Shown: piece by piece, positions 36,237 to 54,114 of the stretch
Layout: every line of letters begins with the position of its first letter
How positions within the stretch are numbered: the stretch's first letter is position 1
Assembly: GCA_963764975.1 (NCBI GenBank)
Contig: CAVXUF010000002.1
Span: 467,809-531,808, forward strand
From: an uncultured Chloroflexia bacterium
GTDB taxonomy: Bacteria > Chloroflexota > Limnocylindria > Limnocylindrales > CSP1-4
Direction of reading: 5' to 3'
DNA length: 64,000 bases
Position numbers and translations under genes: made by a program
The notes under the pieces: model-generated
Databases searched by the model: none
Told to the model about the DNA's origin: nothing
The model's input: only the letters and a program-made list of their open reading frames with translations

Positions 36237-36401
36237 CTGTTGGACTCCGGGTGACGGGGTGTGTCATCCGAGGAGACCAGCTATGGGGCGCTAGGGGAAG
36301 CACGTCGGGAGGCTCTAGAGGCCGGGGTGCGGTCATTGCGATCTTTGGGACCGCGAATGGGCCCTTCCTTGACAGCGCCAGTGTCCCAACCATCGTCTGA
36401 C

Positions 36402-39112: not shown

Positions 39113-39308
39113 GTGGAGAGCCTACGGGACCCCCGTCGCAGCGACTCAACCAATGCACGACCAGGTCCACGGCCTGACTCATCCGGGCTCCGCGCAGTCG
39201 AGAGCCCTACAGCCGCCAAGGACCGCGTGCTCGGTGTCGAAAGATGACTTGACGCCAACCGCAACCCGCCCATGACTAGGGTCCACTCACCACATCGAGG
39301 ACAGACCC

Positions 39309-39551: not shown

Positions 39552-39594
39552 CGGGCCGCGATGCGCGCGATAGGCGGCAGTCAGGACATCGGTC
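39463..39594. repeat. direct repeat copy A (about 50-bp block + 21-bp block), homologous to 58828..58913
   Basis: The block ccgtcgt..atcga.gcgctgagcgacttcacgg(g)tggtttcgatggc and the block gcggca.tcaggacatcggtc each differ from copy B at a few positions only. Confidence 0.7.
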
Positions 39595-39710
39595 GATTTG
39601 TTGCCCTGAGGAATGGCCGCACTTCGATCGCTTCGACTGAGGCTTCTGGGCGATACTGAATGACTCGGTGGACGTCATAGGTCGACGCGCCGTCAAGTCG
39701 TCGTGCGCAG

Positions 39711-42700
39711 ATGCTGGCGGTCCCTTCGCATGAGGGGCCTCGATTTGGTCGCATTGGAGCGAACATGCGCGAGGGAACGAACGTGCGAGCGGCCTCCGGC
39801 TGGCCAGATCCGGGGCGAGAGGCCCTGACAATCCTCCGGGACCAGCTGGCGCCATTCGCGGAGGAGCATCTCTCGAGAGCCTACCCAGACTCGTATCGTC
39901 GAATCCTCGGGCTGGAGCGGCGTCCGGGAGCAACCATTGGGCAGGGTGGCCGCAAGGCCGTCGACGACCCCGACGAGCTCCTTGGCATCTTGTTGAACCA
40001 GCAGTACTGGTCCCGAGCTTTTGAGCCTGCGTTCGGTGGCGATACGAATGCCGCCTACCGGGTCAAGAACCTGTGCCGCGACATCCGCGAACTCCGAGCC
40101 GCGTTCGCGATGCACCAGCGCGATTTCACCCCCGCCGATGCGTGGCGGCTCGTGGATTCGACGATGAGGCTTCTCACCCTGCTTGACCTCCTCGATCAGA
40201 AGACCAAGGACTCGTTGGAGGAGATCCGACGAGAACTTCTGACGGCCAGCGAGAGCCCGGACACGGTTCGGCTGCGCCAGAAGCACCTTGCGCACGTCGC
40301 ATCGCGATTTGAATACGTCGATGTGGGGGCTATTGCGCCTTCGGTAGGTGGCGCTGTTGTACGTCTCAGGCTGGATGAAATCTACCGCTCCCCGCGGTTC
40401 GAGGCCATCAGCGTATCGATGGCACCCGTAGAGAGCGATGACACGGTTGTGGCACAGCCAGCTGGCACCCGGCCCCCGGAGACCGTTGGGCCAGCGGAAA
40501 TCCTCGGCGAGCGGCGCTTGTTGATCGTCGCCGGACCCGGCGCCGGCAAGAGCACGTTCATGCGATCCGTCGCTCGGGACCTCGCCCTTGGCCGAGACGT
40601 GCCGGGGATCGCCGCTGCACTCACGCCGATCCTGGTGGCCGCCAGTGCACTTGGAGAGGCGTTGGCCAATGGATCCGCGTCGTCGCTCGAGGACTACATC
40701 GAGACCCAACTCGCAGGCGATGCGGGACCTGCCCTGGGATCCGACATCCGCGCTGGTCGAGCGATGGTTCTGGTGGACGGTGTCGACGAGGTCGGTGCCC
40801 AGGGGGCTCAAATCAGAGTGGCCCAAGCTCTCGAACACTTCGGGGCGGCGCACCCCAGCGTCCGCATGGTTGTGTCCGCACGACCCATGGGCTACCGCGA
40901 AGTACGCCTTGGCGCAGACTTCACCGCATATCGGCTTTCGCCGCTCGGCTCGGGCGAGATCGAGGCGTTCATCGGCGGCTGGTTCGGGGCCGCCTTCCCG
41001 CAAGACGAGGCGGAGGCCAATCGGCGACGCAGCCTCGGCGTGAACGCGCTGATTTCCTCCTCAGCCGAGTTGCGCGACCTCGCGGGCACCCCCCTGTTGC
41101 TCACCGTGATCTGCCTGCTCGCGATGCGGGGAGGCACACTTCCTGAGCGCCGGGTGGAGCTCTTCAGGGTGGCAACGAACACCCTCCTGCATCAATGGCC
41201 AAGGACCCACGGATTCAATCTCGACGATTACGAGTTGCGGCTGCTCATGGGCAGGGTCGCCGCGAGAATTCTCGAGCGCCGTGAGCGCCTACTCCGGGCA
41301 TCGGAGCTCGAGGGGTTGCTCGAGAACGCGCTTGAGGACTTGCGCGGACTCGCCCGGCCCCAGGCCAGACAAGCGGCAGCAAGCATGTTGCGAATGATCG
41401 AGCAGCAGACCGGCTTCCTTGTCGAGCAAGGCGTCGACGCGGGTGAGCCGGTCTACGGATTCATCCATCGGAACTTCGCCGAATACCTGGCGGCGATTGA
41501 CCTGTTCGAGCGGCACGCCGCAGGCACGATCACCCTCAGCGACATCGTCTTCGATCCCCGCTATGGGGAGGCGATCCCCCTCTTCTTCCTACACGTGAGC
41601 GAGACCGGACTGGAGCTGTCATCCAGGCTCGTCGATGAAGTGCTGTCGCTTGACTCCCCGTTTCGAATCTATGCGTGCTTGGGCGAGCGTCTTGTCGTAG
41701 ACCTGTTGACCCAGGGCGTGCGCGTCAAGCCGATGGTGCGTGAGCGTGCTGTTCTGCTGGCAATTGAGGCGGCGATCTCTGTGAAGTCGTCGTATGTCGC
41801 GGACATGCTGATGACGGGACTCCACCGGCTGGCCACCGAAGACCGGCTCGGCCCCCAAGGCGACCTCCTGATGGAACGTATCGACGCGGCCCCATTCTCG
41901 CGAGGGAGACGGGCGCGGGTCGTATGGAAACTGCGGCCCGAGCCGTACACGGGCCCCGACGTGAGGTGGCTTCTCGACGAGGCGCGCGCCATCGCGGATG
42001 TCGAACCTGGCGAGGCGAACATGCTCCTGAAGCTCGCCTCAGCGGCCACCGGGTCGGAGGCTGCGGAGGTCGACGCTGCCCTGGATCGCCCCGCGGGAAC
42101 GCGGGCGGTGCTTCTCGCTTTTGCAACCGGCCCCGCCGCCACCGACCGGATTCCCATTACCGAGTCCCAGGCAGTTGGACTCGCCGACGCGGGGTTACTG
42201 CGATTATCGGCCGGGGACCTCGTCGCTCATCACGGCGTCCCACCTGGTTTTGATGCGGGGCCGTTCCTTCTGGACGTCGCGGATGTCGACCTCATTGACG
42301 TCGAAGGACTCTTGACACTCAACCAAGAGGGGCTCCCAATGTGGGTAGTCCTCCTGATCTCCGGACTGCGGTCATGGAGTCCGGCCGAGTCAGATGAAGC
42401 CGCAGCACGCTTCGTTCAGCTTCCTGAGCCGGCCGAAGACGCAACCGGATTCGCGCCCACCGTGCTGCTCGCGATCGTGGCCGCCGGGCGCATCGCCCAA
42501 CTGAGCGAGGCGGCGGAGATGCCGGACTGGCTACGGCGGGCGATCGATGCGGAGAATGCGGACGACGGCCTCGACATCGCGCTGGCTTTCCACTTTGTCG
42601 CCACGGCCGTGTCCACGGTCACGTCATGGGGCACTCCCCTGTTGGTGGGACTCCTAACGCATCGCGAGGGCTCCATCCGGAGGGGCGTGTGCCGGCGCAT

Positions 42701-43511
42701 CGGAGAGCGACAAGCCGAGGAAGCGTGGGCTAGCGGTCAGCATTTCCAGCTCGACGAGGATGTCCTGGTCGCGCTGGAGCTGCTCCGGGACGACCCAGAT
42801 CCCGAGGTCAGGAGCGAGGCTTGGCGCACCGCAGCCGTTCTTGGCACGATCCCGACCAAACTCGTGTCCGCGCTCGGCACGGGAGGTGCGACCGTGGAGC
42901 CCAAGGAACCAGTCACACTGCCCGTCTTCGCGGCCCTTGTCTGGTCGCTCATGGCGTCGGCCGCGCATTCGAAGCACGTAGCCGATGGGCACCTACTCGC
43001 GGGGCAGCTCGGTCAGCTGCTCGACTGGCGCGTAAAACCAGTTCCGACGCCCGACGACCTGTGGCGCTTCTGGCCTGGGGCGATCGAACACCATCGACTG
43101 CCGACTGAGGTCCGGGATTCCGCATGGTCCCGAACCGACAGTGCTGATCCCGCGACCAGAGCTTGGGCAGCGGCGTCGTGGGCAACCTGCCTTCGCGGCT
43201 CCGACGGAAGAAACCAAGTCGAGATCCTTCTCAGTGACACTGACCCGTCTGTGAGCCTGGCGGGACTCGTAGGCATGCAGTCGCCCGACATCGGTGATGC
43301 CCTATGGATCCCAGCAGCTGTTGAGCCTCTGCTTCGGGCCGACATCGACATATGGGAGTTCATCATCGGGCCCGCCGGGATTGACATGTCTCCGGAGTAC
43401 CACCGTGAGCTCGGCCGAACGCTTTTGCGCGCATTGGACACTGCGGCAACGACCGAGAACAACTTCGATCTGCTTTGGTCATTTGCGATCGAGTCCTACT
43501 CCAGCCCTTAG
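39711..43511 (+). CDS. STAND-class (NACHT-like) NTPase with N-terminal helical domain and C-terminal HEAT/ARM-like repeats
   Basis: Walker A LLIVAGPGAGKSTF and Walker B MVLVDGVDEV, followed by about 800 aa of helical repeats including DPDPEVRSEAWRTAAVLG (HEAT-like). The N-terminal about 270 aa are uncharacterised (R-x4-H at RLRQKH). An alternative start at ATG 39765 is possible. Confidence 0.65.
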   Translation: MLAVPSHEGPRFGRIGANMREGTNVRAASGWPDPGREALTILRDQLAPFAEEHLSRAYPDSYRRILGLERRPGATIGQGGRKAVDDPDELLGILLNQQYWSRAFEPAFGGDTNAAYRVKNLCRDIRELRAAFAMHQRDFTPADAWRLVDSTMRLLTLLDLLDQKTKDSLEEIRRELLTASESPDTVRLRQKHLAHVASRFEYVDVGAIAPSVGGAVVRLRLDEIYRSPRFEAISVSMAPVESDDTVVAQPAGTRPPETVGPAEILGERRLLIVAGPGAGKSTFMRSVARDLALGRDVPGIAAALTPILVAASALGEALANGSASSLEDYIETQLAGDAGPALGSDIRAGRAMVLVDGVDEVGAQGAQIRVAQALEHFGAAHPSVRMVVSARPMGYREVRLGADFTAYRLSPLGSGEIEAFIGGWFGAAFPQDEAEANRRRSLGVNALISSSAELRDLAGTPLLLTVICLLAMRGGTLPERRVELFRVATNTLLHQWPRTHGFNLDDYELRLLMGRVAARILERRERLLRASELEGLLENALEDLRGLARPQARQAAASMLRMIEQQTGFLVEQGVDAGEPVYGFIHRNFAEYLAAIDLFERHAAGTITLSDIVFDPRYGEAIPLFFLHVSETGLELSSRLVDEVLSLDSPFRIYACLGERLVVDLLTQGVRVKPMVRERAVLLAIEAAISVKSSYVADMLMTGLHRLATEDRLGPQGDLLMERIDAAPFSRGRRARVVWKLRPEPYTGPDVRWLLDEARAIADVEPGEANMLLKLASAATGSEAAEVDAALDRPAGTRAVLLAFATGPAATDRIPITESQAVGLADAGLLRLSAGDLVAHHGVPPGFDAGPFLLDVADVDLIDVEGLLTLNQEGLPMWVVLLISGLRSWSPAESDEAAARFVQLPEPAEDATGFAPTVLLAIVAAGRIAQLSEAAEMPDWLRRAIDAENADDGLDIALAFHFVATAVSTVTSWGTPLLVGLLTHREGSIRRGVCRRIGERQAEEAWASGQHFQLDEDVLVALELLRDDPDPEVRSEAWRTAAVLGTIPTKLVSALGTGGATVEPKEPVTLPVFAALVWSLMASAAHSKHVADGHLLAGQLGQLLDWRVKPVPTPDDLWRFWPGAIEHHRLPTEVRDSAWSRTDSADPATRAWAAASWATCLRGSDGRNQVEILLSDTDPSVSLAGLVGMQSPDIGDALWIPAAVEPLLRADIDIWEFIIGPAGIDMSPEYHRELGRTLLRALDTAATTENNFDLLWSFAIESYSSP

Positions 43512-43600
43512 GTCCTGCGCGGCCCGAGGATGGTCGTTCCCGGATTGGGAGTCGCATCGTGGCGGCGCCCATCTCGGCGGGCGCGCGGAGTTGCCGGGGA

Positions 43601-44908
43601 CTAGCCGAGAATCTCGCCGTCGGCCCTGCCGAAGCTCACCCGCGTCCCGGCCGCCAGCTGGAGGGCCTTACCCGGCTCGACCTCCCGTTGGACCCCGGCA
43701 GTTGAACTCGTCCATGCCTGCTGGGTGAGGTTCCGTAGGCCCCACCTAGAGGGGTCCGACGGGTGGCGGGTGACCTCCGCGACCGGGTTGCGGTAGTCGA
43801 GCCCCGCGGTCTCGTCCAAGTGGTGCGCGTAGAGCTGTGCATCGTGGTTGAGGACGACCAGAGACTTCCCGACCCGGATCCGCATGGGGAGCACTAGCGG
43901 CCGCGCACACTTCCAGCATGACCCCGGCGAGCCGTCCTGCCGGCTCGGGTCGTAGAAGTTCTCGGCGCCGCACGAGCAATAGACGATCGAATCACGGAGT
44001 CGCGCCATCGCCGCGCGCCAAACCGACTCGCGGACCCTGCCGTGGGCGAAGTCCCTCAGCCCGACGGTGAAGGACTGCGTGAACAGGTCGCGCAGGAATG
44101 CCGGGTAGATCGGCCAGAAGGCGATCGCGTTGTCCTGGTACCCGGCCACCGGCTCGTTCGAGGCGTCCTGCGGGTCGAAGATGAACAGCGGGTCCGTGCC
44201 GTACAGGCGAGTCATGGCGGGGAGGTCGAAACAGTGGATGCTCGCCTCCCGGCGGCCCTCAAGCGGGTGGTGGTTGACCAGGAGCAGGAACAGCAGAACA
44301 GCGAGTGAGAATAGGTCCGTCTGGGTCGACGGCAGGGCTTCGCCGCGCACAACCTCGGGGGCCATGAAGCGCGGCGTGCCCAGGACGCCGCCCTTGGCTT
44401 GGTCCAGGCCGACATTGTCGTTGTCGCAGATGAGGACGTCGCCCGTGGCCGGGTCAAAGAAGACGTTCCCATGGGAAATGTCGCGGTAGCAGAGCCCGCG
44501 CGCATGCAGCTGGTAGAAACCGTCGGCGAGAAAGGCTCCAGCCGTGGCGAGGCTGCGGAATGATGGCGACACGCGTCGACTCAGCAGGTCGGGAATGCCC
44601 TTGTAATTGGGCGGGCGAAGGGCCATCAGGTACCCGAAACTCGGGTTCCCCGGAATGGTGGCGAGAGCCACGGGCCACAGGAAGCGCTCGGCTGGGGAGC
44701 CGGCATCAACGAGTGTCTTCAATGCGGCTCGCTGGTCAGCCGTCGCCGTCTGGGCGTAGTACCACTTTAGGGCGAACTTGGATCCACCCAGAGATACCTC
44801 ATAGACCTCCCCCTGGCCTCCGGCGCCCAAAAGGCGCTCCACGCGTCCGGCAGGTCCACCCGGAGAAGCCCGGAACTCCTCGCCCTTGCCGAGAACGCTC
44901 GAAGCCAT
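43601..44908 (-). CDS. Ser/Thr protein kinase with C-terminal FHA-like domain
   Basis: Gly-loop LGAGGQGEVYEV, VAIK-like FALKW, catalytic YRDISHGNVF and DNDNVG (DFG-like). The C-terminal ...VLNHDAQLYAHHLD...ALQLAAGTRVSFGRADGEI resembles an FHA core. The start is set at ATG 44908. Confidence 0.6.
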   Translation of the reverse strand: MASSVLGKGEEFRASPGGPAGRVERLLGAGGQGEVYEVSLGGSKFALKWYYAQTATADQRAALKTLVDAGSPAERFLWPVALATIPGNPSFGYLMALRPPNYKGIPDLLSRRVSPSFRSLATAGAFLADGFYQLHARGLCYRDISHGNVFFDPATGDVLICDNDNVGLDQAKGGVLGTPRFMAPEVVRGEALPSTQTDLFSLAVLLFLLLVNHHPLEGRREASIHCFDLPAMTRLYGTDPLFIFDPQDASNEPVAGYQDNAIAFWPIYPAFLRDLFTQSFTVGLRDFAHGRVRESVWRAAMARLRDSIVYCSCGAENFYDPSRQDGSPGSCWKCARPLVLPMRIRVGKSLVVLNHDAQLYAHHLDETAGLDYRNPVAEVTRHPSDPSRWGLRNLTQQAWTSSTAGVQREVEPGKALQLAAGTRVSFGRADGEILG

Positions 44909-44980
44909 TACATCCTCCCTCGGGCGCCTGCCACGTGCGCCGGAACGGCCAACGCGGAAGGATCTACCACGACCCAATCG

Positions 44981-45898
44981 TCACAGCGATCGAGCCTCCG
45001 CCTCCTCGGCGGATTGTCGAGTCACCGGCGGCGCGGGGGACCACAATAGTCCCAACGAAATGTCATCACCGCTTCCTGAAGCGGTGAGTTCCTCGAGCCA
45101 GCCGGGCACGCGCGAAACAACTTCGTCGAAACCGTCCTGCTGGATCAGGCTGGCGATGTCGGTTGCGAACCGAAGCATGCCTGTGTCGTCGACAAATGAG
45201 TTGACGAGTCCATCGGTTGACAGGAGGACGAGGGGCATGTGCTCGCGAAGGAGAGCCACCCGGAACAGACTCCAAGCGTCTTTCGAGCAGAGCGATGTGG
45301 TCTCGTTTGCGATGAGTCGGTCATCAGAAGGGATCGGTCTCGAGACCTTCCCGTCTGCTGAGACGCTTACAAGGTCCCCGTCGCCGACCTGCCAGGAGGC
45401 AAGAAACTCGGTTGTCGCGACTGCTGTCACAAGGGTCGTGCCATAGGCCACGTATGGATCGAGGTTTAGCGCATCAACGCTCCCTTCGCGGGTGCGCACT
45501 CCATCAAGCTCGACATCTGTGAATGGATTCGCCGCCAGATCGTCGTCTACCGCCTTTCGCCAGTCGCGGACCAACCGCCTTGGCAGGTCTTCGGTCAACC
45601 TTCCCCGGAGCATCCCTGGGCTGGCCGCCGCGATATCAATCTCGAGCAACTCGCCCGCCAGTGACATTGCGACCTGGTTGGCGAGGCGGGAGCCGTCTGC
45701 GCTACGGAATGACCGGGCGCTGCCGTGGCCGTCCGCCACGGAGAGCGCTACTGAGGAGCCATGCCCCACGCTAGGTAGCCATGCGATGGCATCCTGGTTC
45801 GGCATCCCACTCCGAATGTGAGATGCGCCCCTTACTGAAGCGCCCGATACACGCCAGCCACCACTATTCGGAGCTGCCCTCTCCGTCGGGCTGGCCAT
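44981..45898 (-). CDS. PP2C-family Ser/Thr phosphatase
   Basis: GASVRGASHIRSGMPNQDA..., VADGHGS, and the conserved Asp-rich C-terminal motifs (LSTDGL). The start is set at ATG 45898. Confidence 0.65.
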   Translation of the reverse strand: MASPTERAAPNSGGWRVSGASVRGASHIRSGMPNQDAIAWLPSVGHGSSVALSVADGHGSARSFRSADGSRLANQVAMSLAGELLEIDIAAASPGMLRGRLTEDLPRRLVRDWRKAVDDDLAANPFTDVELDGVRTREGSVDALNLDPYVAYGTTLVTAVATTEFLASWQVGDGDLVSVSADGKVSRPIPSDDRLIANETTSLCSKDAWSLFRVALLREHMPLVLLSTDGLVNSFVDDTGMLRFATDIASLIQQDGFDEVVSRVPGWLEELTASGSGDDISLGLLWSPAPPVTRQSAEEAEARSL

Positions 45899-45902
45899 CC
45901 GA

Positions 45903-46607
45903 TTACCAGACGAAGTCGACGTCTGTGGAGTCATCCGGGGCGACGGGTATTGGGACGTTGCCGCCAACTTGCGCGTCGTCTACGGCGCGGCTGGCAGGCG
46001 AGGATGCCGCCTTGAGCACGGCCGTCGAAGCCCACTTGATGTAAGTCACGAGGGCGGGCGCGTTCTTCGCCAGAAGGGGCTTCAGTTCCCCCGTGCCGAT
46101 GAACTTCGACAAGACGTCCAGATCAGCATCGCCCCCAACGGCGATCCCGATTCGAACGGCTCGCTTGCCCCAAGGCTCAGACATGAGCCGCTGGAGTCCC
46201 CCGCCGAAGTCGTCGGTCGGCTGCCCGTCGCTGATCAGCACGAGGACCGGCGGGAGAGATCTGTCGGGCATCGGTGGGGTCTGGAGTTGCTCAGCAACGA
46301 GTTCCATGGCGTGACCCATGTCCGTGACTCCCCCCGCAGTCACGTTGGTCCACTTGAAGTCCTCGATCGAAATGGGCGTTGCGACATGCCACCTCGCGCC
46401 ATCCGAGAAGGTCACGACCCGCACCAGGACCTCCGCATTGGGGTTCTCCCGGGCTGTGTCCAGCATCGCCGGGATCGCCTCGTGGATCGCGAAGTTGAGC
46501 ATGCCGATCTTCTCGCCATCCATGGAACCTGATGTGTCGAGAATCCAGATGAAGTGCAAGGGCCGAGTTGCAATCGGCCCTCCGGGCAAAGCGCTCATGA
46601 CGCGCAT
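45903..46607 (-). CDS. von Willebrand factor A (vWA) domain protein
   Basis: MIDAS motif FIWILDTSGSMDG...T...D. Confidence 0.75.
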   Translation of the reverse strand: MRVMSALPGGPIATRPLHFIWILDTSGSMDGEKIGMLNFAIHEAIPAMLDTARENPNAEVLVRVVTFSDGARWHVATPISIEDFKWTNVTAGGVTDMGHAMELVAEQLQTPPMPDRSLPPVLVLISDGQPTDDFGGGLQRLMSEPWGKRAVRIGIAVGGDADLDVLSKFIGTGELKPLLAKNAPALVTYIKWASTAVLKAASSPASRAVDDAQVGGNVPIPVAPDDSTDVDFVW

Positions 46608-46744: not shown

Positions 46745-49318
46745 GTGAACGACTCCGTCTCGGCGGTCTTGACCGCGATCCTCGATAGGTACGGCAGGGA
46801 GGTCTCATTCGACCCGCCTCGGGTAGAAGGCCTCCTGCGGGACTTGGCCGGCCAGCACAAGCGCGAGATCGCCGTCCTAGTCGTGGCGTGTCGGGCTGGC
46901 GTCCCCGGGGCACTGATTGGTGCGGCAAGTTCCGAGGAAGCCGACCTGCTCGCAAACCGCCTCGCAGCCCAGCTCGAACGAGACCTTGGATTGGCGCAGG
47001 GTCCATCGGCCTGGGCCGTAACAACATGGGCGGCGGCCCTCGGCGTTGAGGTTGGGCCATCTCTCAAGGCGGCCGCGATAGATCCGTCGACACCGGTGCC
47101 TGCGGTTGACCCCACAGTGGGCTCCACCCCTGCATCCCCCTCCCCCGTGAACTGGACGAACGTACCGCCGCCTGTGCCCGTGCTACTGCCCGACTGGCGA
47201 GCGGCCCTCGCCGCAATCGCCATTCGCTGGCGAACGGCCCTCGACGCAATCGCCGTTCGTTGGCCAGCTTGGAAGGCGAACGCTCGCGTAGCGGCGGGCA
47301 ACGTCCCACGCCGAGGGTGGGCGATCGGCGGTGGGGCGCTCGCTCTTGTCATCGTGGTGCTTGCCCTGTCGAGACCGTCGCCGCCGTCGAGTTCAGCGGC
47401 CAATCTAGCGGTCAGCCCAACCGCTCGACCAACTCCGACGAGCACCATCGTGCCGCCAACGCCGTCCAATGAGCCGTCGTTGACGACCGCCCCAACCGAC
47501 ACGGCCACCGGCTCGACCCCCGCTCCGACGCCGACGCCGTCCGCGGCGGCCTTTTCCGCGTGCCCGACGCCCGGCGCGCCGGGCAAGGCGTTCTCGGTCA
47601 CGACAGGGCTGGCGTACTCGGGCACCTCGGGGATGGGGGCTGTCGAAGTCGTGGTCCTCGGCCCGGGCGGGTCCCGGACTGGCGTGTACACGGAGGTCCA
47701 CAAGGCGAAGGCCGACGTGCTTGGCAAGCCGATCGTCGGCGACCGGGTGGCCAATGCGAACTCCGACTCTAGCGGCGCTGCCCTGATGGAGGTCAAGCCC
47801 GGCACGTACTCAGTGACCACGGACCTGCCTGGCTACAACTGGGGAGACCTGCAGGACGGCAAGGGGCAGAGCGGGATCACCGTCAGGTCCGGACGCAGGA
47901 CCCGCGTGACCATCAGCCTGGGTTCGATCACCTTCGTCCCGACGAAGGTCGACGGCGTCATCACAGGCAAATACGCCGAGATCCACCTGCAGAAGACCGA
48001 CAGCCAGGGCGGCGTCGTCACCGGCGATCGCGTGGGGGACGGCAACACCGACAACACGGGCGCGTTGACGATCCTCGTGACGCCCGGCTCCTACGTCCTC
48101 ACCTCGGACTTCGACGGCCACAACTGGGGCGACCTGTCCGACGGCAAGGGCTGCTCGGGCGTCAGCGTGGGCCCGAGGGACGATACCAAGGTCGAGCTCC
48201 CGCTCGGCCGCCTCCGGGTCGCGATTCCCGCGGGCAAGTACGCCGAGGTACACCTCGGCACAGCGGCGGCGCCGGGTGACCGCGTCGCGTCCGGGAACGC
48301 CGACAACACCGGCTACTGGGCCACCGACCTCGTTCCCGGCGCGTACGTCCTCGTCGTCGACGACCACGCCAGCGAGGTGACCGTCGAGGCCGGCCAGGTC
48401 ACCGACACGGCCACCGGCTCGACCCCCGCTCCGACGCCGACGCCGTCCGCGGCGGCCTTTTCCGCGTGCCCGACGCCCGGCGCGCCGGGCAAGGCGTTCT
48501 CGGTCACGACAGGGCTGGCGTACTCGGGCACCTCGGGGATGGGGGCTGTCGAAGTCGTGGTCCTCGGCCCGGGCGGGTCCCGGACTGGCGTGTACACGGA
48601 GGTCCACAAGGCGAAGGCCGACGTGCTTGGCAAGCCGATCGTCGGCGACCGGGTGGCCAATGCGAACTCCGACTCTAGCGGCGCTGCCCTGATGGAGGTC
48701 AAGCCCGGCACGTACTCAGTGACCACGGACCTGCCTGGCTACAACTGGGGAGACCTGCAGGACGGCAAGGGGCAGAGCGGGATCACCGTCAGGTCCGGAC
48801 GCAGGACCCGCGTGACCATCAGCCTGGGTTCGATCACCTTCGTCCCGACGAAGGTCGACGGCGTCATCACAGGCAAATACGCCGAGATCCACCTGCAGAA
48901 GACCGACAGCCAGGGCGGCGTCGTCACCGGCGATCGCGTGGGGGACGGCAACACCGACAACACGGGCGCGTTGACGATCCTTGTGACGCCCGGCTCCTAC
49001 GTCCTCACCTCGGACTTCGACGGCCACAACTGGGGCGACCTGTCCGACGGCAAGGGCTGCTCGGGCGTCAGCGTGGGCCCGAGGGACGATACCAAGGTCG
49101 AGCTCCCGCTCGGCCGCCTCCGGGTCGCGATTCCCGCGGGCAAGTACGCCGAGGTACACCTCGGCACAGCGGCGGCGCCGGGTGACCGCGTCGCGTCCGG
49201 GAACGCCGACAACACCGGCTACTGGGCCACCGACCTCGTTCCCGGCGCGTACGTCCTCGTCGTCGACGACCACGCCAGCGAGGTGACCGTCGAGGCCGGC
49301 CAGGTCACCGACAGCTAG
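46745..49318 (+). CDS. membrane protein: conserved N-terminal helical module + Pro/Thr linker + TM helix + six carboxypeptidase-regulatory/Ig-like extracellular repeats
   Basis: The N-terminal about 100 aa are shared with three other ORFs. TM helix GWAIGGGALALVIVVLALS. Repeated about 100-aa units have G-V-D...G...TD.TG...V.PG.Y. The gene contains a perfect 906-bp tandem duplication. Confidence 0.55.
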   Translation: MNDSVSAVLTAILDRYGREVSFDPPRVEGLLRDLAGQHKREIAVLVVACRAGVPGALIGAASSEEADLLANRLAAQLERDLGLAQGPSAWAVTTWAAALGVEVGPSLKAAAIDPSTPVPAVDPTVGSTPASPSPVNWTNVPPPVPVLLPDWRAALAAIAIRWRTALDAIAVRWPAWKANARVAAGNVPRRGWAIGGGALALVIVVLALSRPSPPSSSAANLAVSPTARPTPTSTIVPPTPSNEPSLTTAPTDTATGSTPAPTPTPSAAAFSACPTPGAPGKAFSVTTGLAYSGTSGMGAVEVVVLGPGGSRTGVYTEVHKAKADVLGKPIVGDRVANANSDSSGAALMEVKPGTYSVTTDLPGYNWGDLQDGKGQSGITVRSGRRTRVTISLGSITFVPTKVDGVITGKYAEIHLQKTDSQGGVVTGDRVGDGNTDNTGALTILVTPGSYVLTSDFDGHNWGDLSDGKGCSGVSVGPRDDTKVELPLGRLRVAIPAGKYAEVHLGTAAAPGDRVASGNADNTGYWATDLVPGAYVLVVDDHASEVTVEAGQVTDTATGSTPAPTPTPSAAAFSACPTPGAPGKAFSVTTGLAYSGTSGMGAVEVVVLGPGGSRTGVYTEVHKAKADVLGKPIVGDRVANANSDSSGAALMEVKPGTYSVTTDLPGYNWGDLQDGKGQSGITVRSGRRTRVTISLGSITFVPTKVDGVITGKYAEIHLQKTDSQGGVVTGDRVGDGNTDNTGALTILVTPGSYVLTSDFDGHNWGDLSDGKGCSGVSVGPRDDTKVELPLGRLRVAIPAGKYAEVHLGTAAAPGDRVASGNADNTGYWATDLVPGAYVLVVDDHASEVTVEAGQVTDS
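47495..49313. repeat. perfect tandem duplication, 906-bp unit x 2 (302 codons, in frame) inside the 46745..49318 gene
   Basis: Identical ORF translations are offset by exactly 906 bp (for example 47560..47772 = 48466..48678). Copy 1 is 47495-48400 and copy 2 is 48401-49306. Confidence 0.85.
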
Positions 49319-49394: not shown

Positions 49395-49862
49395 TCAGGG
49401 CGGCAGCCCGATCTTACGGCGCACACGCGCCTCGATCGTCAGTCGTGCCTTCTGGACCTCGTCGGCCGCGTGCTGCAGGTCTGCAATCGCCGAGTTGATT
49501 TCGCCCACAACGGCATTCATCCCCGCGCCGTTCTGCCGACGGGTCCTCGATCTGGGCGACGCCGGCAGAGGCACTCCGAGGCTACCGAGGAGCGCCACGG
49601 AATCGCGCTCGATCTGGTCCAGTTCGCCGAGCAGTCTGGCGACGTCGGCGTCAGTGCGACGCTGCTTGTCCTGGCTGGCTTGCATGGCGGCCCGACTCCG
49701 GGCCTCTGTTGCGTCGCACCGTGAGACGTGCTCATTCTGTGAGGCAGCCTCGGAGCGACCCAGGTCCGCCTCAATTCGTGCCAGCTCCGTCAAGGTCCTC
49801 GCGACAGCGGCACGACCTGAGTAACCCGGGTCACCCGGACGGAGTTTCGGAGCGACCATCAA
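49395..49862 (-). CDS. hypothetical coiled-coil protein
   Basis: 155-aa helical ORF with a 4-nt overlap to the upstream small ORF. Confidence 0.3.
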   Translation of the reverse strand: MMVAPKLRPGDPGYSGRAAVARTLTELARIEADLGRSEAASQNEHVSRCDATEARSRAAMQASQDKQRRTDADVARLLGELDQIERDSVALLGSLGVPLPASPRSRTRRQNGAGMNAVVGEINSAIADLQHAADEVQKARLTIEARVRRKIGLPP

Positions 49863-50074
49863 GGGACCGAGCTGCGGATGCTCTCCAGCACGGCGTCGAG
49901 TTCCCGCATCTGATCGAGGAACGCGGACGCCGCGCGAGTGAGCGGACCCCAGTAGTCGCCTTCGAATTCACTTCGGACCCTGTCGCTCCAGACCTCACCG
50001 GTGAGAGCCCACTCAGCATTCAGCCATTGGCAGGCCTGCTCGAACTCGGCTACAAATGTCGACCCCGCCATCAC
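49859..50074 (-). CDS. WXG100-like small helical protein (W-x-D variant), paralog 3
   Basis: EVWSDRVRSEFEGDYW aligns with the central motif of the other two paralogs. Confidence 0.35.
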   Translation of the reverse strand: MMAGSTFVAEFEQACQWLNAEWALTGEVWSDRVRSEFEGDYWGPLTRAASAFLDQMRELDAVLESIRSSVP

Positions 50075-50346
50075 GGGACGCCCAGATAGGCTTTGAGCGC
50101 TGCGGCCTTGTCCTGAAGGAACGAGATGCCGTCGGCCGACCGAGCCATGTAGCGGCTGATGGCGTCATCGACCTCGCTCCACTCCTCGGAGAACTGTTGG
50201 TAGCGCGAATCCTGCCAGCCTTCGCCCAGCCGTGCGAATTCCGTGTTGCACCGCTCCATGCTCTCGGCTAGTTCCATGTTGAACACGCGGACCTCGCGGA
50301 GGAACGCCTCGAGTAGCTCGAGATCCACATCAATCCCGCCCGACAT
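50071..50346 (-). CDS. WXG100-like small helical protein (W-x-D variant), paralog 2
   Basis: 91 aa from ATG 50346 (MSGGIDVDLELLEAF...). The central motif is GEGWQDSRYQQFSEEW. Confidence 0.4.
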   Translation of the reverse strand: MSGGIDVDLELLEAFLREVRVFNMELAESMERCNTEFARLGEGWQDSRYQQFSEEWSEVDDAISRYMARSADGISFLQDKAAALKAYLGVP

Positions 50347-50456
50347 ACCGCCTCCTCTAACTGTCGTCCCGCGCCTACCGTTCCCACCACCCGACTTGGC
50401 CGGCCTTCTCCTGAAGCTGTGCGCGGGCGCCGGGACACGTTGCATGGAGCTCCTGC

Positions 50457-50807
50457 TCAAATCGACTGGACGACGTGGCGAGGCCATCGGAAGCCGCATA
50501 GGCTCGCCGCTCGAGCGACGTTGCGATATCGAGAATTCGTCTGAGCCTCGTCGCGCGCGGCAACCAGCGCGTAGCAATCCACCTCGCCCCCGCTCGCGAT
50601 TGCTGCCGCCTCGCATTGGCGGAGCTCAAGCTGACGCGCCTCGACCTCTCGCAGCCAGTAGGCGCGCCGCTCTCCCGTGAGTTGGACCACGGCTCCGACT
50701 GCCTCCCGTGCCTCTGCGACGGCACCGGCGGATCGTTCTTCGAACCGGCCGATCGAACCGGCAAGGTCTCGCGCGACTTCGCCACCCGAGATGCGTCCAT
50801 TCCACAT
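50457..50807 (-). CDS. small helical hypothetical protein
   Basis: 117 aa from ATG 50807, lying between WXG-like genes. Confidence 0.3.
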   Translation of the reverse strand: MWNGRISGGEVARDLAGSIGRFEERSAGAVAEAREAVGAVVQLTGERRAYWLREVEARQLELRQCEAAAIASGGEVDCYALVAARDEAQTNSRYRNVARAASLCGFRWPRHVVQSI

Positions 50808-50811
50808 CAGA

Positions 50812-51084
50812 CTATGCCTCGTAGTCTCGGGCCTCGGCGAGGCGCGAACGGAGGTACTCGACATAGCGCTCGGATCGCGCGAGGTAGTGCTCGATAACAG
50901 GGTACGTCTCGTCCCAGTCGCTCAAGAACCGCATCGCCTGCGGATCGCGCCAGGCCGACAGAAGCTCGGCCCACGCCCCGTTCAGGTTCGAGGCACGCGC
51001 CTGAAGATCCGTGTTGTAGGAAACGAGGGTCGAGATGAACGCACTCAGCGCGTCGGGATCCCTCAGGGTCCCCCTTGTGCTCAT
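50812..51084 (-). CDS. WXG100-like small helical protein (W-x-D variant), paralog 1
   Basis: 90 aa. Central GAWAELLSAWRDPQAMRFLSDW, a predicted helix-turn-helix hairpin. Confidence 0.4.
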   Translation of the reverse strand: MSTRGTLRDPDALSAFISTLVSYNTDLQARASNLNGAWAELLSAWRDPQAMRFLSDWDETYPVIEHYLARSERYVEYLRSRLAEARDYEA

Positions 51085-53598
51085 GTCACTTCCCTTTCTG
51101 TAGCTGCTTGACGATTGTCCACCGCGTCAGGCTGTCGTCGCCCTCTGAGCCGCGTTGCGATCCTCGCCCACGTTTCCGAGTCTGGCAGTTCATAAGGCTT
51201 GAACTTCACCGGTCGATGGGCACGGACATCGTCTTTGAAGAGTGCCCGCTCAGCCCCGAGGCGACCGGCTGCCGGGATCTGGAGATAGGCGTTCGACTCA
51301 GAATCTGGCATCGGCAGGGCGACGCGCAACCCGAAGGCCAGGGTGGCCTGCCTCTGGACAAGACGCTCGAGGTTCGTGAAGACGGCCGACCATGCGAATA
51401 TGTGAACGCCAACACCCGGCCCATCGTTCACCACGTCTAGGAATGCCGCGGCAGCTCCGGCGGCCTTGCCAAACCGATCCGTCTCTCGCAAGGCGTCGAG
51501 CCTGTCAAGGCCCGGGATGACCACGATCTTCGAGCGCCCTGCCGCGCCGGTCCTTCGGCTGGCGACAACCTCGGCCAGGTCGCCGAACAGGTCGCCGACT
51601 CCTGACATGGGCAGTGTCGCCACCTCGTGCGGCACAGTCTGGCCGAGCTCGTCGAAGATCTTGCTCCATGCGTGACCTCCCGTGCTCGCCTGCACAATGG
51701 CCAGGTCCAGCTCGTCGACGCCGCCGTCTGCGCACGCGCCGATAAGCGCCGAGCACAAGATCGCATGGGCAAGGCGCTCATCTTGCCCAGCGATCAGAAG
51801 ATTCTCCCTTGGCATCCTGGCGAGAGTCGCGGCGAGGTGTGGGCCGATCTCGATAGGCTCGCCGAGCCAGAGGCGGGCGCCATCGATTCCGTACCCAGAG
51901 TCGCTGGCAAGAGACTTCCCGAGGTCTACGTTCTCGCGAAGTCGCGCGGGGGCGCTGGAGGAGAAGACGTATGGTGCCCAGGATCGCGCGGCGCCGGCCT
52001 TTCCTAGCTGCCGAATCTGAGCGATCCGCTGTCGCCGTTCCTCCGGTTCAAGCATGGCCACCCGCAACATGACATTGCGGGTGGCATCTCCACCGGCGTC
52101 GTTGTACACGGCCTCGCCCGACTTCTCGAGCGACGCAGCAGCCGCGTTGTTGTCGCCCAGGATGAGGCGAGCGTCGGCATCAGCGATGGACAGGGCGATA
52201 CGGAGGCTCACGGAGATTCATGGCCGAGCGGTTGCTGGTGAAACTGCTCGCTGGTGTCTGGCTGCTCAGAAGCACGTGGATACCGAAGCCCCGCCCGCGC
52301 TTGATGAGGTCGGCGAGCTGCGTGGTCGCCGCGGCCGTCAGGGTCGGATCGCCCCCGTCGCCGAACAGGATCTGATACTCGTCGAGGACCAGGAGCACGC
52401 GCGCCATCGGCTGGCCCGTCGAAGCCCGGTAGGCCTTGATCGTCTGTGTCTGAGCCTGCCGGAAGAGCACCCCGCGACGCGCCAGCTCCTGCCCGATCGC
52501 GTTGAGAACGCTCAGACCCTGCTCGGGATCGCTTTCCAGGCCGATGGCGCGGGCGTGCGGGAGCCCTCCGCGCGCATAGTCCTGAAACTCGACTCCTTCC
52601 TTGAAGTCGAGCAGGTAGACCTCCAATTCATCTGGGGAGTAGGCGGCCGCCAACTGGACCAGTAGTACATGAAGGAGGTTGGTCTTGCCCGAACCCGGGA
52701 GACCACCGATGAGTCCGTGGTGCACGAGGCCCGAGCCGATGACGAATTCGTGGGGCTGACCTCTGGCGTCCGTGCCGATGACGGCCCGAAGCCCATCGCT
52801 TGAGTCCGATTTCCACAACTGGTCTGGCGGGATCGCCACCCTCGCAAACGGGACCGTCTCGTCGGCCTGGGCGTCAGCTCCGTGCCCGGCGACGTCAAGC
52901 AGACGATCCAGCACGGCATCGCTTGGCGACTCATCCAGGCGCACGCGATATCGGCCCAAGTCCGGCTCGTTCCAGGAAGCCATCCCTCCACTGTCAACCC
53001 GCAGCGTCCAACATCTTGCCGATGCCGCCGCGAGGTCGAGAGACCGAGGCAGCTGACCACCGGTCTGGTGCACGGTCGCGAGGACGATCGTTCCAGTGCG
53101 AGGCCCATTCTCTATAAGTCGGAACAGCGACGCCGCGGACGTCTCAGAGAAGCCCGCCGGGTAACCGACGACCGCCACAAACTCGTACCTAACGCGCTGC
53201 ACGCCGGGTTTCCGGTTGTGGTCCTCGATCGATGCGCTGTTCAGCAGCTGGTTTTGCGTCACTGCCTCAACGTGGGACAGAAGGCGGCTGAGCTCGGACT
53301 CCAGCTCACGTGCGTCCGAGTAGACCTTGTCGCGACGAACTTGGGTGGGCAGGCGTAGGTAGGTCTTCAAATTCTGGCCAAGGCCCGCGGGGTCAATCAG
53401 GGTCAGCCGGTAACTCCCCGGCGGCACAGTCCCCACGATCCGAGCGAGGACGCTCTTGAGCGACTGGGCGGCGAAATCGGAAGCATTGGCGTCGGCAAGC
53501 CAAAGGATGGGCCGGCTCGCAAACAGCGGCAGGAGCGCCGGTGCAGGCGACCCGACCCGGGGCACATCTATGGCGCCGACGCGGATCGAAGCCGGCAA
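51081..53598 (-). pseudogene. FtsK/SpoIIIE-family (EccCb/EssC-like) ATPase, frameshifted around 52180-52211 and apparently 5-prime truncated
   Basis: ORF 52180..53598 has Walker A GLIGGLPGSGKT and Walker B VLLVLDEYQ. ORF 51081..52211 continues the same domain in another frame (SLRIALSIADADARLILG, equivalent to the FtsK RIAF...DSRTIL region), then a degenerate third domain. The upstream frame is open to about 53874 but has no start other than TTG 53598. Confidence 0.55.
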
Positions 53599-54114
53599 GC
53601 GACCGGGCTGGGAGCCGCCGGACAGCGGCCACTGCGACGACCAGGGTTCTGCGATTGCCCCGAGGAACGCGATGGCCTCCCTTATCGGTCTGACGACGTC
53701 GCGATCGATCAGACCCTGGGCTCGCTGACGCTCCTGATCAACCTCCTGCTTGGCCTGCTGCTCGCTCGCCGCGATCGCTCGTCTTGCCGCATCGCGGCTG
53801 CGGGTCGAATTCCTGCTGAACGTCCCGAGCTGCCGCTTGCCGCTCTGTGGCCGCCTCAGCTCTGGCGAGGTCGATCAGCGTTTGGAGGTGAAGGTATCGA
53901 TCGAGTAGAGCATCGATAGCCCTGCGTTCAGTGCCCATTGCCTCGCGGTGCCCCTCCGCTCGATCGAGGCGTGTCGCACGAGGACAGGATCATCGTCTGT
54001 CCGCCGGTCAGCGCGCGTGCAGCCATCCTACTAAATCGGGGCCGAGTCAATTGCTCTGACCGGCTGGTCCGCGCATCACGCCTGCCCGTCATGCGGCGCC
54101 TGAACCGACCCACG

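What the first reader, a model, noticed from the sequence alone, without database searches (positions are those of the whole stretch)
49395..53598. Type VII-secretion-like remnant: W-x-D variant WXG100-like paralogs beside a degraded EccCb-like FtsK ATPase
At least three small helical proteins share the central motif W-[SQR]-D-x5-F-x2-[DE]-W in place of WxG (SAWRDPQAMRFLSDW, EGWQDSRYQQFSEEW, EVWSDRVRSEFEGDYW). They lie directly downstream of an FtsK/SpoIIIE-family ATPase. The ATPase has one canonical P-loop domain, one degenerate P-loop domain and no TM segment, like the soluble EccCb part of ESX systems. That gene is frameshifted and lacks a proper start. No EccB/D/E, mycosin or membrane EccCa is in the window. 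This may be a decaying ESX-like export module or an unusual WXG-like toxin/substrate cluster.
Basis: partly seen in the sequence, partly recalled or inferred. Interest (0 to 1): 0.6.

Follow-up and report, generated by a model that had tools for sequence, protein, structure and literature searches.

The report
Decayed mobile type-VII-like ATPase/WXG module
This is a broken copy of an already described, widespread "mobile mini type VII secretion" gene set: a three-domain EssC-like ATPase plus small ESAT-6-like hairpin proteins that carry W-x-D in place of W-x-G, beside a TerY-P signalling triad on a defence island; it is ordinary as a kind, and dead as a copy.

Summary
On the minus strand at 53938-49395 lie an FtsK/SpoIIIE-family ATPase gene and five small helical genes. 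Three of them (A, C, D) carry W-x-D-x5-F-x2-[DE]-(x)-W. That pattern occurs three times in the window's six frames, against 0.005 expected.

The ATPase is closer to EccC/EssC than to DNA translocases. It has three FtsK-like domains, not two, and only the middle one keeps Walker A and B. It starts with a coiled coil and has no TM segment. It is broken by two frameshifts, and gene B by a third.

This is not the remnant of an ESX locus. It belongs to a separate family found in at least 585 species genomes, with a conserved A-B-D triplet beside the ATPase.

The family is already in the literature:
- Zhang et al. 2012: solo WXG proteins with a YueA-like ATPase of three FtsK domains, middle one active, called "mobile versions of T7SS".
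- H. pylori HP0062, which has WRD in place of WXG and a solved hairpin structure.
- The WXG100/FtsK insert next to TerY-P triads in CoCoNuT loci.

Verdict: a new, degraded member of a known kind. Interest is low.

The parts
51081..53938 (-). EssC/YueA-like ATPase pseudogene, reconstructed at about 953 aa. It has an N-terminal coiled coil, a degenerate FtsK-like domain, an active FtsK domain and a second degenerate FtsK-like domain. It has no TM segment. It is split over three reading frames.
   Evidence: Three-frame translation. The reconstruction aligns end to end with 19 intact homologues of about 940 aa and has 40% identity over 98% coverage to P0001. PDB profile search: T. curvata EccC 3e-59, against 1e-17 for FtsK. 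The AF2 model of P0001 has a helix at 2-95 and three alpha/beta domains, and its best Foldseek match is 4NH0 at 2e-33 over 950 columns. No hydrophobic segment was found.
53738..53874 (-). Zone holding frameshift 1. The ATG-initiated N-terminal ORF (53938-53738) overlaps the main open frame, which is open from 53874 but has no start codon before 53598.
   Evidence: The conserved W104, R120 and G122 of the family lie upstream of the first start codon at 53598.
52681..52695 (-). Walker A (GSGKT) of the only active ATPase domain. Walker B (VLDEYQ) is at 52389-52372.
   Evidence: The G, K, D and E are invariant in alignment A1.
52211..52216 (-). Frameshift 2. It lies inside the active FtsK domain, between ...SNRSAMNL and (V)SLRIALSIADADARLILG.
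   Evidence: tblastn with P0001 and P0080 switches frame here. The close relative P0002 reads straight through as AMNLINLRITL. The DNA context ATGAATCTCCGTGAGC is not a long homopolymer.
50812..51084 (-). A: an HP0062-like WXG100 hairpin protein of 90 aa, with W45-R-D47. It overlaps the ATPase stop by 4 nt.
   Evidence: Pfam WXG100 E 1.5e-3. W and D are invariant in family alignment A2. The A2 profile hits HP0062 (2GTS/3FX7) at 1e-15.
50375..50807 (-). B: a long helical-hairpin protein with a Cys-containing loop. It is broken by frameshift 3 near 50535. This copy has no C-terminal effector domain.
   Evidence: The B family HMM matches positions 13-106 in one frame and 109-150 in the next. The fused sequence scores 30.6 bits against 22.8 unfused. 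The intact 144-aa orthologue in L087 spans both parts. AF2 of family member P0152 gives two helices of about 70 aa, pLDDT 87.
50071..50346 (-). C: a second A-type WXG100-like paralogue of 91 aa, with W44-Q-D46.
   Evidence: Pfam WXG100 E 3e-3. It aligns in A2. An orthologue is present in L087.
49859..50074 (-). D: a short WXG-like hairpin of 71 aa, with W29-S-D31. It overlaps the stop of C by 4 nt.
   Evidence: jackhmmer from A, C or D converges on one family. W and D are invariant in A3. hhalign of A2 against A3 gives 94% probability, E 1.4e-7.
49395..49862 (-). E: a 155-aa coiled-coil protein, the last gene of the operon. It overlaps the stop of D by 4 nt.
   Evidence: A full-length orthologue with the same C-terminus (…GLPP) is in L087. 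The positional counterpart in Chloroflexi locus L002 has a C-terminal hydrophobic stretch, seen by inspection of its sequence. The window copy has no TM segment.
43601..46607 (-). TerY-P triad. It consists of a vWA protein (46607-45903, MIDAS motif DTSGS), a PP2C phosphatase (45967-44981) and a Ser/Thr kinase with a C-terminal zinc ribbon (44977-43601).
   Evidence: Pfam VWA_2, PP2C_2 and Pkinase. PADLOC TerY gives a weak hit. The motifs can be read in the sequence. The literature links this triad with WXG/FtsK modules (PMC4978471, PMC11090510).

Best explanation
The locus is a pseudogenised copy of a stand-alone, horizontally mobile T7SS-like module. Here it sits next to a TerY-P (vWA, PP2C, kinase) triad, near Tn7-like transposition genes and several defence-type genes.

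How intact relatives most likely work. All of this paragraph is inference by analogy with EccC/EssC; nothing here was tested.
- The ATPase forms a hexamer, and only its middle domain hydrolyses ATP.
- The two degenerate domains act as regulatory or substrate-docking modules, as EccC D3 docks EsxB.
- The small W-x-D hairpins A and D pair with each other, or pack along the roughly 100-angstrom hairpin of B.
- The resulting helical bundle is the ATPase's client.
- In about a third of relatives B carries a variable C-terminal domain, which would be the cargo or effector.

Shown rather than inferred: the long forms of the ATPase (about 1300 aa) have two hydrophobic, TM-like segments, like EssC. That fits export across the membrane. 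The short form, to which this window belongs, has none. It must either use a separate membrane partner or act in the cytoplasm under TerY-P phosphorylation control.

In this window the system cannot work as encoded. The ATPase has two frameshifts, one of them inside the active domain, and B has one.
For: Family membership:
- The reconstructed ATPase aligns end to end with intact 940-aa homologues. Walker A and B are present only in the middle domain.
- PDB profile search gives EccC 3e-59, EccC5 7e-37 and YukB 2.5e-32, against 1e-17 for FtsK.
- The AF2 model of the 40%-identical P0001 (pLDDT 88) matches the three-ATPase EccC cytoplasmic domain over 950 columns.
- The A family profile hits HP0062 at 1e-15 and EsxB at 4e-9.
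- The A-B-D triplet lies on the ATPase strand in 69 of 84 loci.
- At least 585 species genomes hold a relative.

Link to the published systems:
- The window ATPase matches the ATPase of Caballeronia plasmid pSBC2-5 at 34% identity, E 8e-39.
- That locus reads VWA, WXG100 (with TWQD), a coiled-coil REase protein, two small genes, FtsK, CARF, VWA, PP2C, STK. This is the CoCoNuT III-A arrangement (PMC11090510).
- PMC3482391 Table 1 note 6 describes the ATPase type. PMC3397514 describes WRD in HP0062.

Decay.

TM segments in the long forms only.

Variable B C-termini: 25 of 73 B proteins have one, in 8 sequence clusters. A Helicobacter plasmid has an HNH-annotated protein at the B position, followed by a SUKH (SMI1/KNR4) immunity gene.

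Operon coupling: 4-nt overlaps join the ATPase to A, C to D and D to E.
Against: - No member of this family has been tested experimentally as far as the papers read here show. Secretion, client binding and hexamer formation are all inferred by analogy.
- The B hairpin has no specific structural match. Foldseek E-values are 0.1 or worse, and the TelA-LXG/Lap complex appears only among generic coiled coils.
- The TerY-P neighbourhood is not general. Searches with this window's own vWA, PP2C and kinase proteins found it in none of the other 84 loci at phmmer sensitivity. Gene-call Pfam tables do show vWA genes in L002 and L088, and kinases in L002.
- NCBIfam EccCa, EccCb and EssC scores are far below their cutoffs (81 against 509 bits), so the ATPase is not an orthologue of those proteins.
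- The frameshifts cannot be checked against reads.
Confidence: 0.85

Rival explanations
1. The genes are intact in the organism, and the three frameshifts are sequencing or assembly errors. The locus would then be a working short-form module.
For: All three breaks look like single-base frame changes. No reads are available. A, C, D and E are intact and translationally coupled.
Against: Long ORFs elsewhere in the island are unbroken: 1295, 1266, 977, 857 and 737 aa, more than 15 kb of coding sequence. That compares with three breaks in 4.5 kb here. At that local rate about ten breaks would be expected in those ORFs. Frameshift 2 is not in a long homopolymer. The closest relative, L087, also has a damaged ATPase, cut 5' at the Walker A motif, which suggests decay in this lineage.
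Confidence: 0.12
2. This is the remnant of a canonical actinobacterial ESX (T7SSa) locus. Its EccB, EccD, EccE, MycP and membrane EccCa genes were deleted, leaving an EccCb-like gene and Esx paralogues.
For: The sequence has the high G+C typical of actinobacteria. The ATPase is EccC-like and lacks a TM segment. The top NCBIfam hits are EccCa and EccCb.
Against: Homologues in Chloroflexota, Planctomycetota, Verrucomicrobiota and proteobacterial plasmids have the same domain plan and the same A-B-D triplet, and ORF clustering found no other widely conserved gene. The protein spans three ATPase domains plus a coiled coil, not the two domains of EccCb. The small proteins are HP0062-type with an invariant W-x-D, not EsxA/EsxB.
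Confidence: 0.03
3. It is a conjugative or chromosome-partition DNA translocase (TraB/FtsK/TcpA-like), and the small helical proteins are unrelated.
For: The Pfam family is FtsK_SpoIIIE. The locus lies in a region with Tn7-like transposition genes.
Against: FtsK motors and TcpA match only one domain (about 285 columns, E 1e-13 to 1e-15), against 950 columns and 2e-33 for EccC. No TM segment was found, and a gamma (KOPS-binding) domain was neither looked for specifically nor seen in the Pfam scan or the model. Two of the three domains lack Walker motifs. WXG-like genes are conserved alongside.
Confidence: 0.02

Closest known systems
'Mobile versions of T7SS': solo WXG proteins with a YueA-like ATPase of three HerA/FtsK domains, only the middle one active (Zhang, de Souza, Anantharaman, Iyer, Aravind 2012, Biol Direct, PMC3482391, Table 1 note 6)
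   Same: The ATPase plan is the same: three FtsK-like domains with only the middle one active. It is paired with small stand-alone WXG-like proteins, and the distribution is patchy and looks mobile.
   Different: [quoted passage not shown] This copy is in a high-G+C, actinobacterium-like genome. It has an extra A-type paralogue (C) and a coiled-coil gene E, and it is frameshifted.
H. pylori HP0062 (PDB 2GTS, 3FX7) and its FtsK/SpoIIIE neighbour HP0066
   Same: The A-type profile hits HP0062 at 1e-15 over its full length. HP0062 has WRD at the hairpin bend, forms a helix-hairpin dimer and clusters with an FtsK/SpoIIIE gene (PMC3397514).
   Different: Sequence identity is low. HP0066 itself could not be compared here. 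The Helicobacter plasmid locus fetched has an HNH-annotated protein at the B position plus a SUKH immunity gene. The window's B has no such domain.
EssC-like ATPase/WXG100 insert of Type III-A CoCoNuT and TerY-P loci (Bell et al. 2024, eLife, PMC11090510; Anantharaman et al. 2012 as cited there; H. pylori TerY-P island, PMC4978471)
   Same: It has an N-terminal coiled coil, no TM segment, three ATPase domains with the middle one active, two WXG100-like genes with a coiled-coil protein between them, and adjacency to vWA, PP2C and a Ser/Thr kinase with a zinc ribbon. The window ATPase is 34% identical to that of the Caballeronia plasmid locus, which has this exact arrangement.
   Different: No CnuB, CnuC, CnuH or CnuE (McrBC-type) genes are in the window. 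The module is not flanked by two vWA genes. B lacks the D-ExK nuclease domain. The gene order has the ATPase first.
Canonical T7SS ATPases EccC (T7SSa) and EssC/YukB (T7SSb) with EsxA/EsxB substrates
   Same: They are the best sequence and fold matches. They share tandem FtsK-like domains and WXG100-superfamily clients.
   Different: In EccC/EssC more than one domain keeps Walker motifs; for EssC these are D1 and D2 (PMC11090510). Here only the middle one does. There are no FHA or TM N-terminal regions in the short form. No EccB/D/E, MycP, EssA/B or EsaA families were hit in the ORFs scanned. W-x-D replaces W-x-G. NCBIfam equivalog cutoffs are missed by a wide margin.

Membership tests
Mobile T7SS-like module (three-domain YueA/EssC-like ATPase plus HP0062-type WXG proteins) | ATPase with three tandem HerA/FtsK-like domains | tested here: met
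   The AF2 model of the 40%-identical homologue P0001 has three alpha/beta domains at 118-357, 384-648 and 658-925. Foldseek aligns 950 columns to the three-ATPase EccC structure 4NH0. The window protein aligns with P0001 end to end.
Mobile T7SS-like module (three-domain YueA/EssC-like ATPase plus HP0062-type WXG proteins) | Only the middle domain keeps Walker A and Walker B | tested here: met
   GSGKT lies at 52695-52681 and VLDEYQ at 52389-52372. The equivalent positions of the first and third domains (…LIDPAGLG…/…AVVGYPAGF… and …LLIAGQDE…/…VVIPGLDRL…) have no GK[ST] or DE.
Mobile T7SS-like module (three-domain YueA/EssC-like ATPase plus HP0062-type WXG proteins) | Adjacent stand-alone WXG100-superfamily hairpin proteins | tested here: met
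   A, C and D. The A2 profile hits HP0062 at 1e-15, EsxB at 4e-9 and EsxA at 3e-5. D-type links to A-type by hhalign at 94%. The triplet is syntenic in 69 of 84 loci.
Mobile T7SS-like module (three-domain YueA/EssC-like ATPase plus HP0062-type WXG proteins) | Genes intact and able to encode a working system | tested here: not met
   There are two frameshifts in the ATPase and one in B. This bears on function, not on homology.
TerY-P-associated EssC-like/WXG100 insert (CoCoNuT III-A type) | N-terminal coiled coil and no TM segment on the ATPase | tested here: met
   The homologue model has a single helix at 2-95. The window N-terminus aligns to it. No hydrophobic segment was found.
TerY-P-associated EssC-like/WXG100 insert (CoCoNuT III-A type) | Adjacent TerY-like vWA, PP2C and Ser/Thr kinase with zinc ribbon | tested here: met
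   Located at 46607-43601. Pfam gives VWA_2, PP2C_2 and Pkinase. The MIDAS motif DTSGS and the zinc-ribbon cysteines CSC…CWKC are in the sequence.
TerY-P-associated EssC-like/WXG100 insert (CoCoNuT III-A type) | Embedded in a CoCoNuT (CnuB/McrB, CnuC/McrC, CnuH, CnuE) operon, flanked by two vWA genes, with a coiled-coil protein carrying a D-ExK nuclease | tested here: not met
   No McrB, McrC or DUF2357 hits in the window ORFs scanned. There is only one vWA gene. The window's B is the hairpin only.
Pfam WXG100 (PF06013) / NCBIfam TIGR03930 | Score above the curated cutoff, and a W-x-G turn motif | tested here: not met
   Pfam gives 19.2 and 18.2 bits against a cutoff of 27.3. TIGR03930 gives about 13 bits against 44.85. 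The turn is W-x-D, with D invariant. Superfamily relationship is still supported by the profile search.
Canonical ESX/T7SSa | EccB, EccD, EccE, MycP and a membrane-anchored EccC | tested here: not met
   No such Pfam families were hit in 37 window ORFs. ORF clustering of the related loci found no conserved gene beyond the ATPase, A, B and D. The ATPase has no TM segment. The rest of the genome could not be searched.
EccC/EssC equivalogs (TIGR03924, TIGR03925, TIGR03928) | Whole-protein score above the curated cutoff | tested here: not met
   Scores are 80.7, 68.6 and 63.2 bits against cutoffs of 509, 347 and 778 (run on the 472-aa fragment).
FtsK/SpoIIIE/TraB DNA translocases | A single active motor domain with an N-terminal TM region (a gamma DNA-binding domain in FtsK), and best similarity to DNA pumps | tested here: not met
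   FtsK, TcpA and CedB are much weaker matches and cover one domain only. No TM segment was found.
LXG polymorphic toxin with Lap helper proteins (T7SSb) | An LXG domain (PF04740) on the long hairpin protein and DUF3130/DUF3958-type helpers | tested here: inconclusive
   No Pfam LXG or DUF3130 hit. The B hairpin model resembles many coiled coils, and 8GMH (TelA-LXG/LapA3/LapA4) appears at E 0.24. The B N-terminal helix matches the A-type profile at 77% probability. The architecture is analogous: a hairpin stem, a variable C-terminus and two small helper genes.

The most novel reading that the evidence does not exclude
The conserved A-B-D triplet may be an LXG/Lap-like targeting unit that has not been recognised as such.
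- B would be a long-hairpin stem that carries interchangeable C-terminal domains in about a third of loci. These include Imm33-like, ParB-like, REase-like, HNH with a SUKH immunity gene, HExxH and DUF2380 types.
- The two W-x-D hairpins A and D would be its obligate helper partners.
- TM-bearing long-form ATPases in Planctomycetota and Verrucomicrobiota would then form a minimal effector-export T7SS outside the Gram-positive phyla.
- The TM-less short forms next to TerY-P would be a phosphorylation-gated cytoplasmic variant used in defence.

This window would be only a dead example, but the family would deserve experiments.
Probability: 0.3. Interest if true: 0.6.

Novelty: new member of a known kind. 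Interest (0 to 1): 0.25.

Why it matters
For this window it matters little. The copy is broken, and the kind has been in the comparative-genomics literature since 2009-2012. Three points are useful.
- The case gives a clean rule for annotators. A TM-less FtsK-like gene with a degenerate-active-degenerate domain plan, next to W-x-D hairpin genes, is this mobile module and not a decayed ESX locus.
- It extends the TerY-P association to a high-G+C, actinobacterium-like genome, in a region with Tn7-like transposition genes and defence-type genes.
- The family is large, with at least 585 species genomes, and no experimental test of it was found in the papers read here. The split between long forms with TM segments and short forms without, together with the variable C-termini of B, gives concrete handles for deciding whether it exports proteins or acts inside the cell.

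Tried and rejected
- PADLOC models: only generic FtsK-domain hits (SspH, mad8). No system assignment was possible.
- Pfam and NCBIfam on B, D and E: nothing.
- B-family profile against PDB sequences: only coiled-coil noise.
- Foldseek with the B hairpin model: unspecific.
- Searching the 84 related loci with this window's vWA, PP2C, kinase, N-domain, HEPN-NACHT, UvrD and AAA proteins: essentially no hits. Only L002/L003 share the CarboxypepD_reg protein, so those neighbours are not part of the conserved core.
- jackhmmer with E: no hits in the loci. An HMM of the long-form ATPase N-termini matched E only weakly (8 bits), so 'E is a split-off N-terminal coiled coil' is not established.
- Exact-sequence look-ups of A and of the vWA protein: not on record, so the source genome and independent copies could not be found.
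- Word-indexed search with the shared N-terminal domain: only 2 hits. The exhaustive search was needed.
- Anantharaman et al. 2012 (PMC4104200) is not held. Its content is cited only through papers that quote it.

Full report
**What is in the sequence**

The region 53938-49395 is a single minus-strand gene string.
- It starts with an FtsK/SpoIIIE-family gene (PF01580, E 6e-25).
- Five small genes follow. I call them A (51084-50812, 90 aa), B (50807-50375), C (50346-50071, 91 aa), D (50074-49859, 71 aa) and E (49862-49395, 155 aa).
- The ATPase and A, C and D, and D and E overlap by 4 nt, as in a translationally coupled operon.
- A, C and D carry WRDPQAMRFLSDW, WQDSRYQQFSEEW and WSDRVRSEFEGDYW.
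- The pattern W.D.{5}F.{2}[DE].?W occurs only at these three places in all six frames of the window. Shuffled sequence gives 0.005 hits on average.

**The ATPase gene is broken twice**

- The open frame that holds the FtsK domain runs from 53874 to 52180 and has no start codon before 53598.
- It nevertheless encodes family-invariant residues upstream of that point (W104, R120 and G122 of alignment A1).
- A separate ATG-initiated ORF (53938-53738) in another frame supplies the N-terminal helix.
- At 52211-52216 the frame changes again, in the middle of the active domain. tblastn with intact homologues switches frame exactly there: P0001 residues 41-574, then 576-942.
- The closest relative reads straight through as AMNLINLRITL.
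- Joined across both breaks, the protein has 953 aa. It aligns end to end with intact proteins of about 940 aa, with 40% identity and 98% coverage to P0001.

**Gene B is broken once**

- The family HMM matches positions 13-106 in one frame and 109-150 in the next.
- Fusing the two raises the score from 22.8 to 30.6 bits.
- The orthologue in the closest related contig (L087) is one 144-aa ORF that covers both parts.
- The repaired B would end at 50375, 28 nt before C starts.

**Are the breaks real?**

Long ORFs elsewhere in the island (1295, 1266, 977, 857 and 737 aa) are unbroken. Three breaks in 4.5 kb is therefore not general sequence noise. I cannot check reads. I give 'assembly error' about 0.12.

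**What the ATPase is**

- The family profile finds T. curvata EccC (4NH0) at 3e-59, EccC5 at 7e-37 and B. subtilis YukB/EssC at 2.5e-32. FtsK motors score 1e-17 and the conjugative TcpA 4e-14.
- An AlphaFold model of P0001 (pLDDT 88) has one helix at 2-95 and then three alpha/beta domains.
- Foldseek aligns that model over 950 columns to the three-ATPase cytoplasmic part of EccC (E 2e-33). It aligns to only one domain of FtsK.
- Only the middle domain has Walker A (GSGKT) and Walker B (DE).
- No TM segment is present in the window protein or in other short forms. The 1300-aa forms common in Planctomycetota have two hydrophobic segments at about residues 220-290, as EssC and EccC have N-terminal TM helices.

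NCBIfam EccC and EssC equivalog cutoffs are missed by far. This is a relative of those proteins, not an orthologue.

**What the small proteins are**

- Single sequences hit Pfam WXG100 only below the cutoff.
- I collected homologues from 84 related loci and searched their ORFs iteratively.
- A, C and D converge on one family. In 69 of 84 loci the order is an A-type gene (about 86 aa), then B, then a D-type gene (about 67 aa), on the ATPase strand.
- W and D of W-x-D are invariant in both the A-type and D-type alignments.
- The A-type profile hits H. pylori HP0062 (2GTS/3FX7) at 1e-15 over its full length. It then hits B. anthracis EsxB at 4e-9 and S. aureus EsxA at 3e-5.
- D-type links to A-type by hhalign at 94% probability.
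- HP0062 is a solved helix-hairpin dimer. It is described as ESAT-6-like, with 'WRD' in place of WXG, and as clustered with an FtsK/SpoIIIE gene (PMC3397514).

**B and E**

- B is predicted with high confidence to be a hairpin of two 70-residue helices.
- That hairpin has no specific fold match.
- Of 73 B proteins, 25 carry a C-terminal extension of 110 aa or more. These fall into eight unrelated sequence clusters.
- Pfam names an Imm33-like domain for a member of the largest cluster and DUF2380 for one singleton. It gives only weak ParB_N hits for the second cluster. The TM-plus-REase-like and HExxH types rest on reading the sequences.
- The window's B is the hairpin alone.
- E is a coiled-coil protein conserved at full length in L087. 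Its role is open.

**This is a known kind**

- Zhang et al. [quoted passage not shown] - Bell et al. 2024 (PMC11090510) describe the same insert in Type III-A CoCoNuT loci. It has a coiled-coil N-terminus, no TM segment, three ATPase domains with the central one active, two WXG100 proteins (one without WxG), and a coiled-coil nuclease.
- I tied the window to these directly. Its ATPase fragment matches the ATPase of Caballeronia plasmid pSBC2-5 at 34% identity, E 8e-39.
- The annotated locus there is VWA, WXG100 (A-type, with TWQD), a 436-aa coiled-coil protein with a C-terminal extension, two small genes, FtsK, CARF, VWA, PP2C, STK.
- A Helicobacter plasmid has an A-type gene, an HNH-annotated protein at the B position, a SMI1/KNR4 (SUKH) immunity gene, a small gene and FtsK.

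**Context in the window**

- The cluster lies in a stretch with lower G+C (24-58 kb).
- That stretch holds Tn7-like genes (a TnsB-like protein and TniQ), an IetA-like AAA ATPase, a NERD/UvrD helicase, a HEPN-NACHT protein and a TerY-P triad at 46607-43601.
- The triad has a vWA protein with a MIDAS motif, a PP2C phosphatase, and a kinase with a zinc ribbon.
- vWA genes also flank the module in L002 and L088, and kinases in L002. Searches with this window's own proteins found them in none of the other loci. The association is therefore facultative.
- No ESX core gene was hit in any ORF scanned.

**Mechanism**

Shown here:
- homology to EccC/EssC and to WXG100 proteins;
- the domain plan of the ATPase;
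- conserved A-B-D synteny;
- TM-like segments in the long forms only;
- variable C-termini on B;
- decay of this copy.

Inferred by analogy with EccC and EsxB:
- the ATPase forms a hexamer driven by its middle domain;
- a degenerate domain docks a hairpin client;
- A and D pair with each other or with B;
- long forms export the client;
- TM-less forms act in the cytoplasm or depend on a partner, possibly gated by TerY-P phosphorylation.

None of this can operate here as the genes are encoded.

**Verdict**

It is a new, degraded member of a known kind. Interest is 0.25.

Noticed in passing
window 46745-47050 (+), 55653-55350 (-), 56848-56540 (-), 58485-58180 (-): Four proteins flanking the cluster share a roughly 100-aa N-terminal domain (…DPRRxEALLRDLxGxHRxEIAVLVxAxRxGVP…PASWAVxTWAxALG). 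Their C-terminal parts differ: a TM segment plus CarboxypepD_reg repeats, a TM segment plus an unknown domain, Prok-JAB, and a double zinc ribbon. The domain has no Pfam model. An exhaustive HMM search finds 3912 representative clusters. In those, the domain is nearly always N-terminal and fused to beta-helix/NosD, FGE-sulfatase, WD40, NHL or TPR modules. It looks like an uncatalogued adaptor domain of the 'effector-associated domain' type.
   Followed up: partly
window 47495-49300 (within gene 46745-49318, +): There is an exact 906-bp tandem duplication: 47495-47794 equals 48401-48700 at 100% identity. It repeats a block of about 302 aa of CarboxypepD_reg-like domains. This is either a very recent duplication or an assembly artefact. 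A homologous protein sits upstream of the module in Chloroflexi locus L002.
   Followed up: partly
window 27662-46607: This stretch holds Tn7-like genes (a TnsB-like protein at 33193-30260 and TniQ at 29167-27662) and several defence-type genes. These are an IetA-like AAA ATPase (36236-34857), a NERD/UvrD helicase (39112-36899), a Swt1-HEPN-NACHT STAND protein (39711-43511) and a TerY-P triad (46607-43601). G+C is 0.63-0.66 here, against 0.69-0.73 in the first 20 kb.
   Followed up: partly
L087 (ENA ERZ27256921 k141_3720607) 197-3484: The closest relative of the window cluster also has a damaged ATPase. Its ORF starts at the Walker A motif, and homology ends about 25 codons upstream. Its gene order is different (A, C, E, B) and its B is intact. 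The ATPase may be decaying across this lineage while the small genes persist.
   Followed up: partly
loci L014, L007, L001, L009, L085 and others (B genes): The B hairpin protein is modular. 48 of 73 copies are the hairpin only. 25 carry C-terminal domains in eight unrelated sequence clusters. Locus L009 has two tandem B-D cassettes with different C-termini. A Helicobacter plasmid has an HNH-annotated protein at the B position, followed by a SUKH immunity gene. This is a polymorphic-effector pattern.
   Followed up: partly
P0070-P0119 (long-form ATPases, about 1300 aa): The long forms of the ATPase, common in Planctomycetota and Verrucomicrobiota, have about 215 aa of N-terminal coiled coil and then two hydrophobic helices at about residues 220-290. 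The short forms lack both. This is a split like that between membrane-bound and soluble EccC parts.
   Followed up: partly
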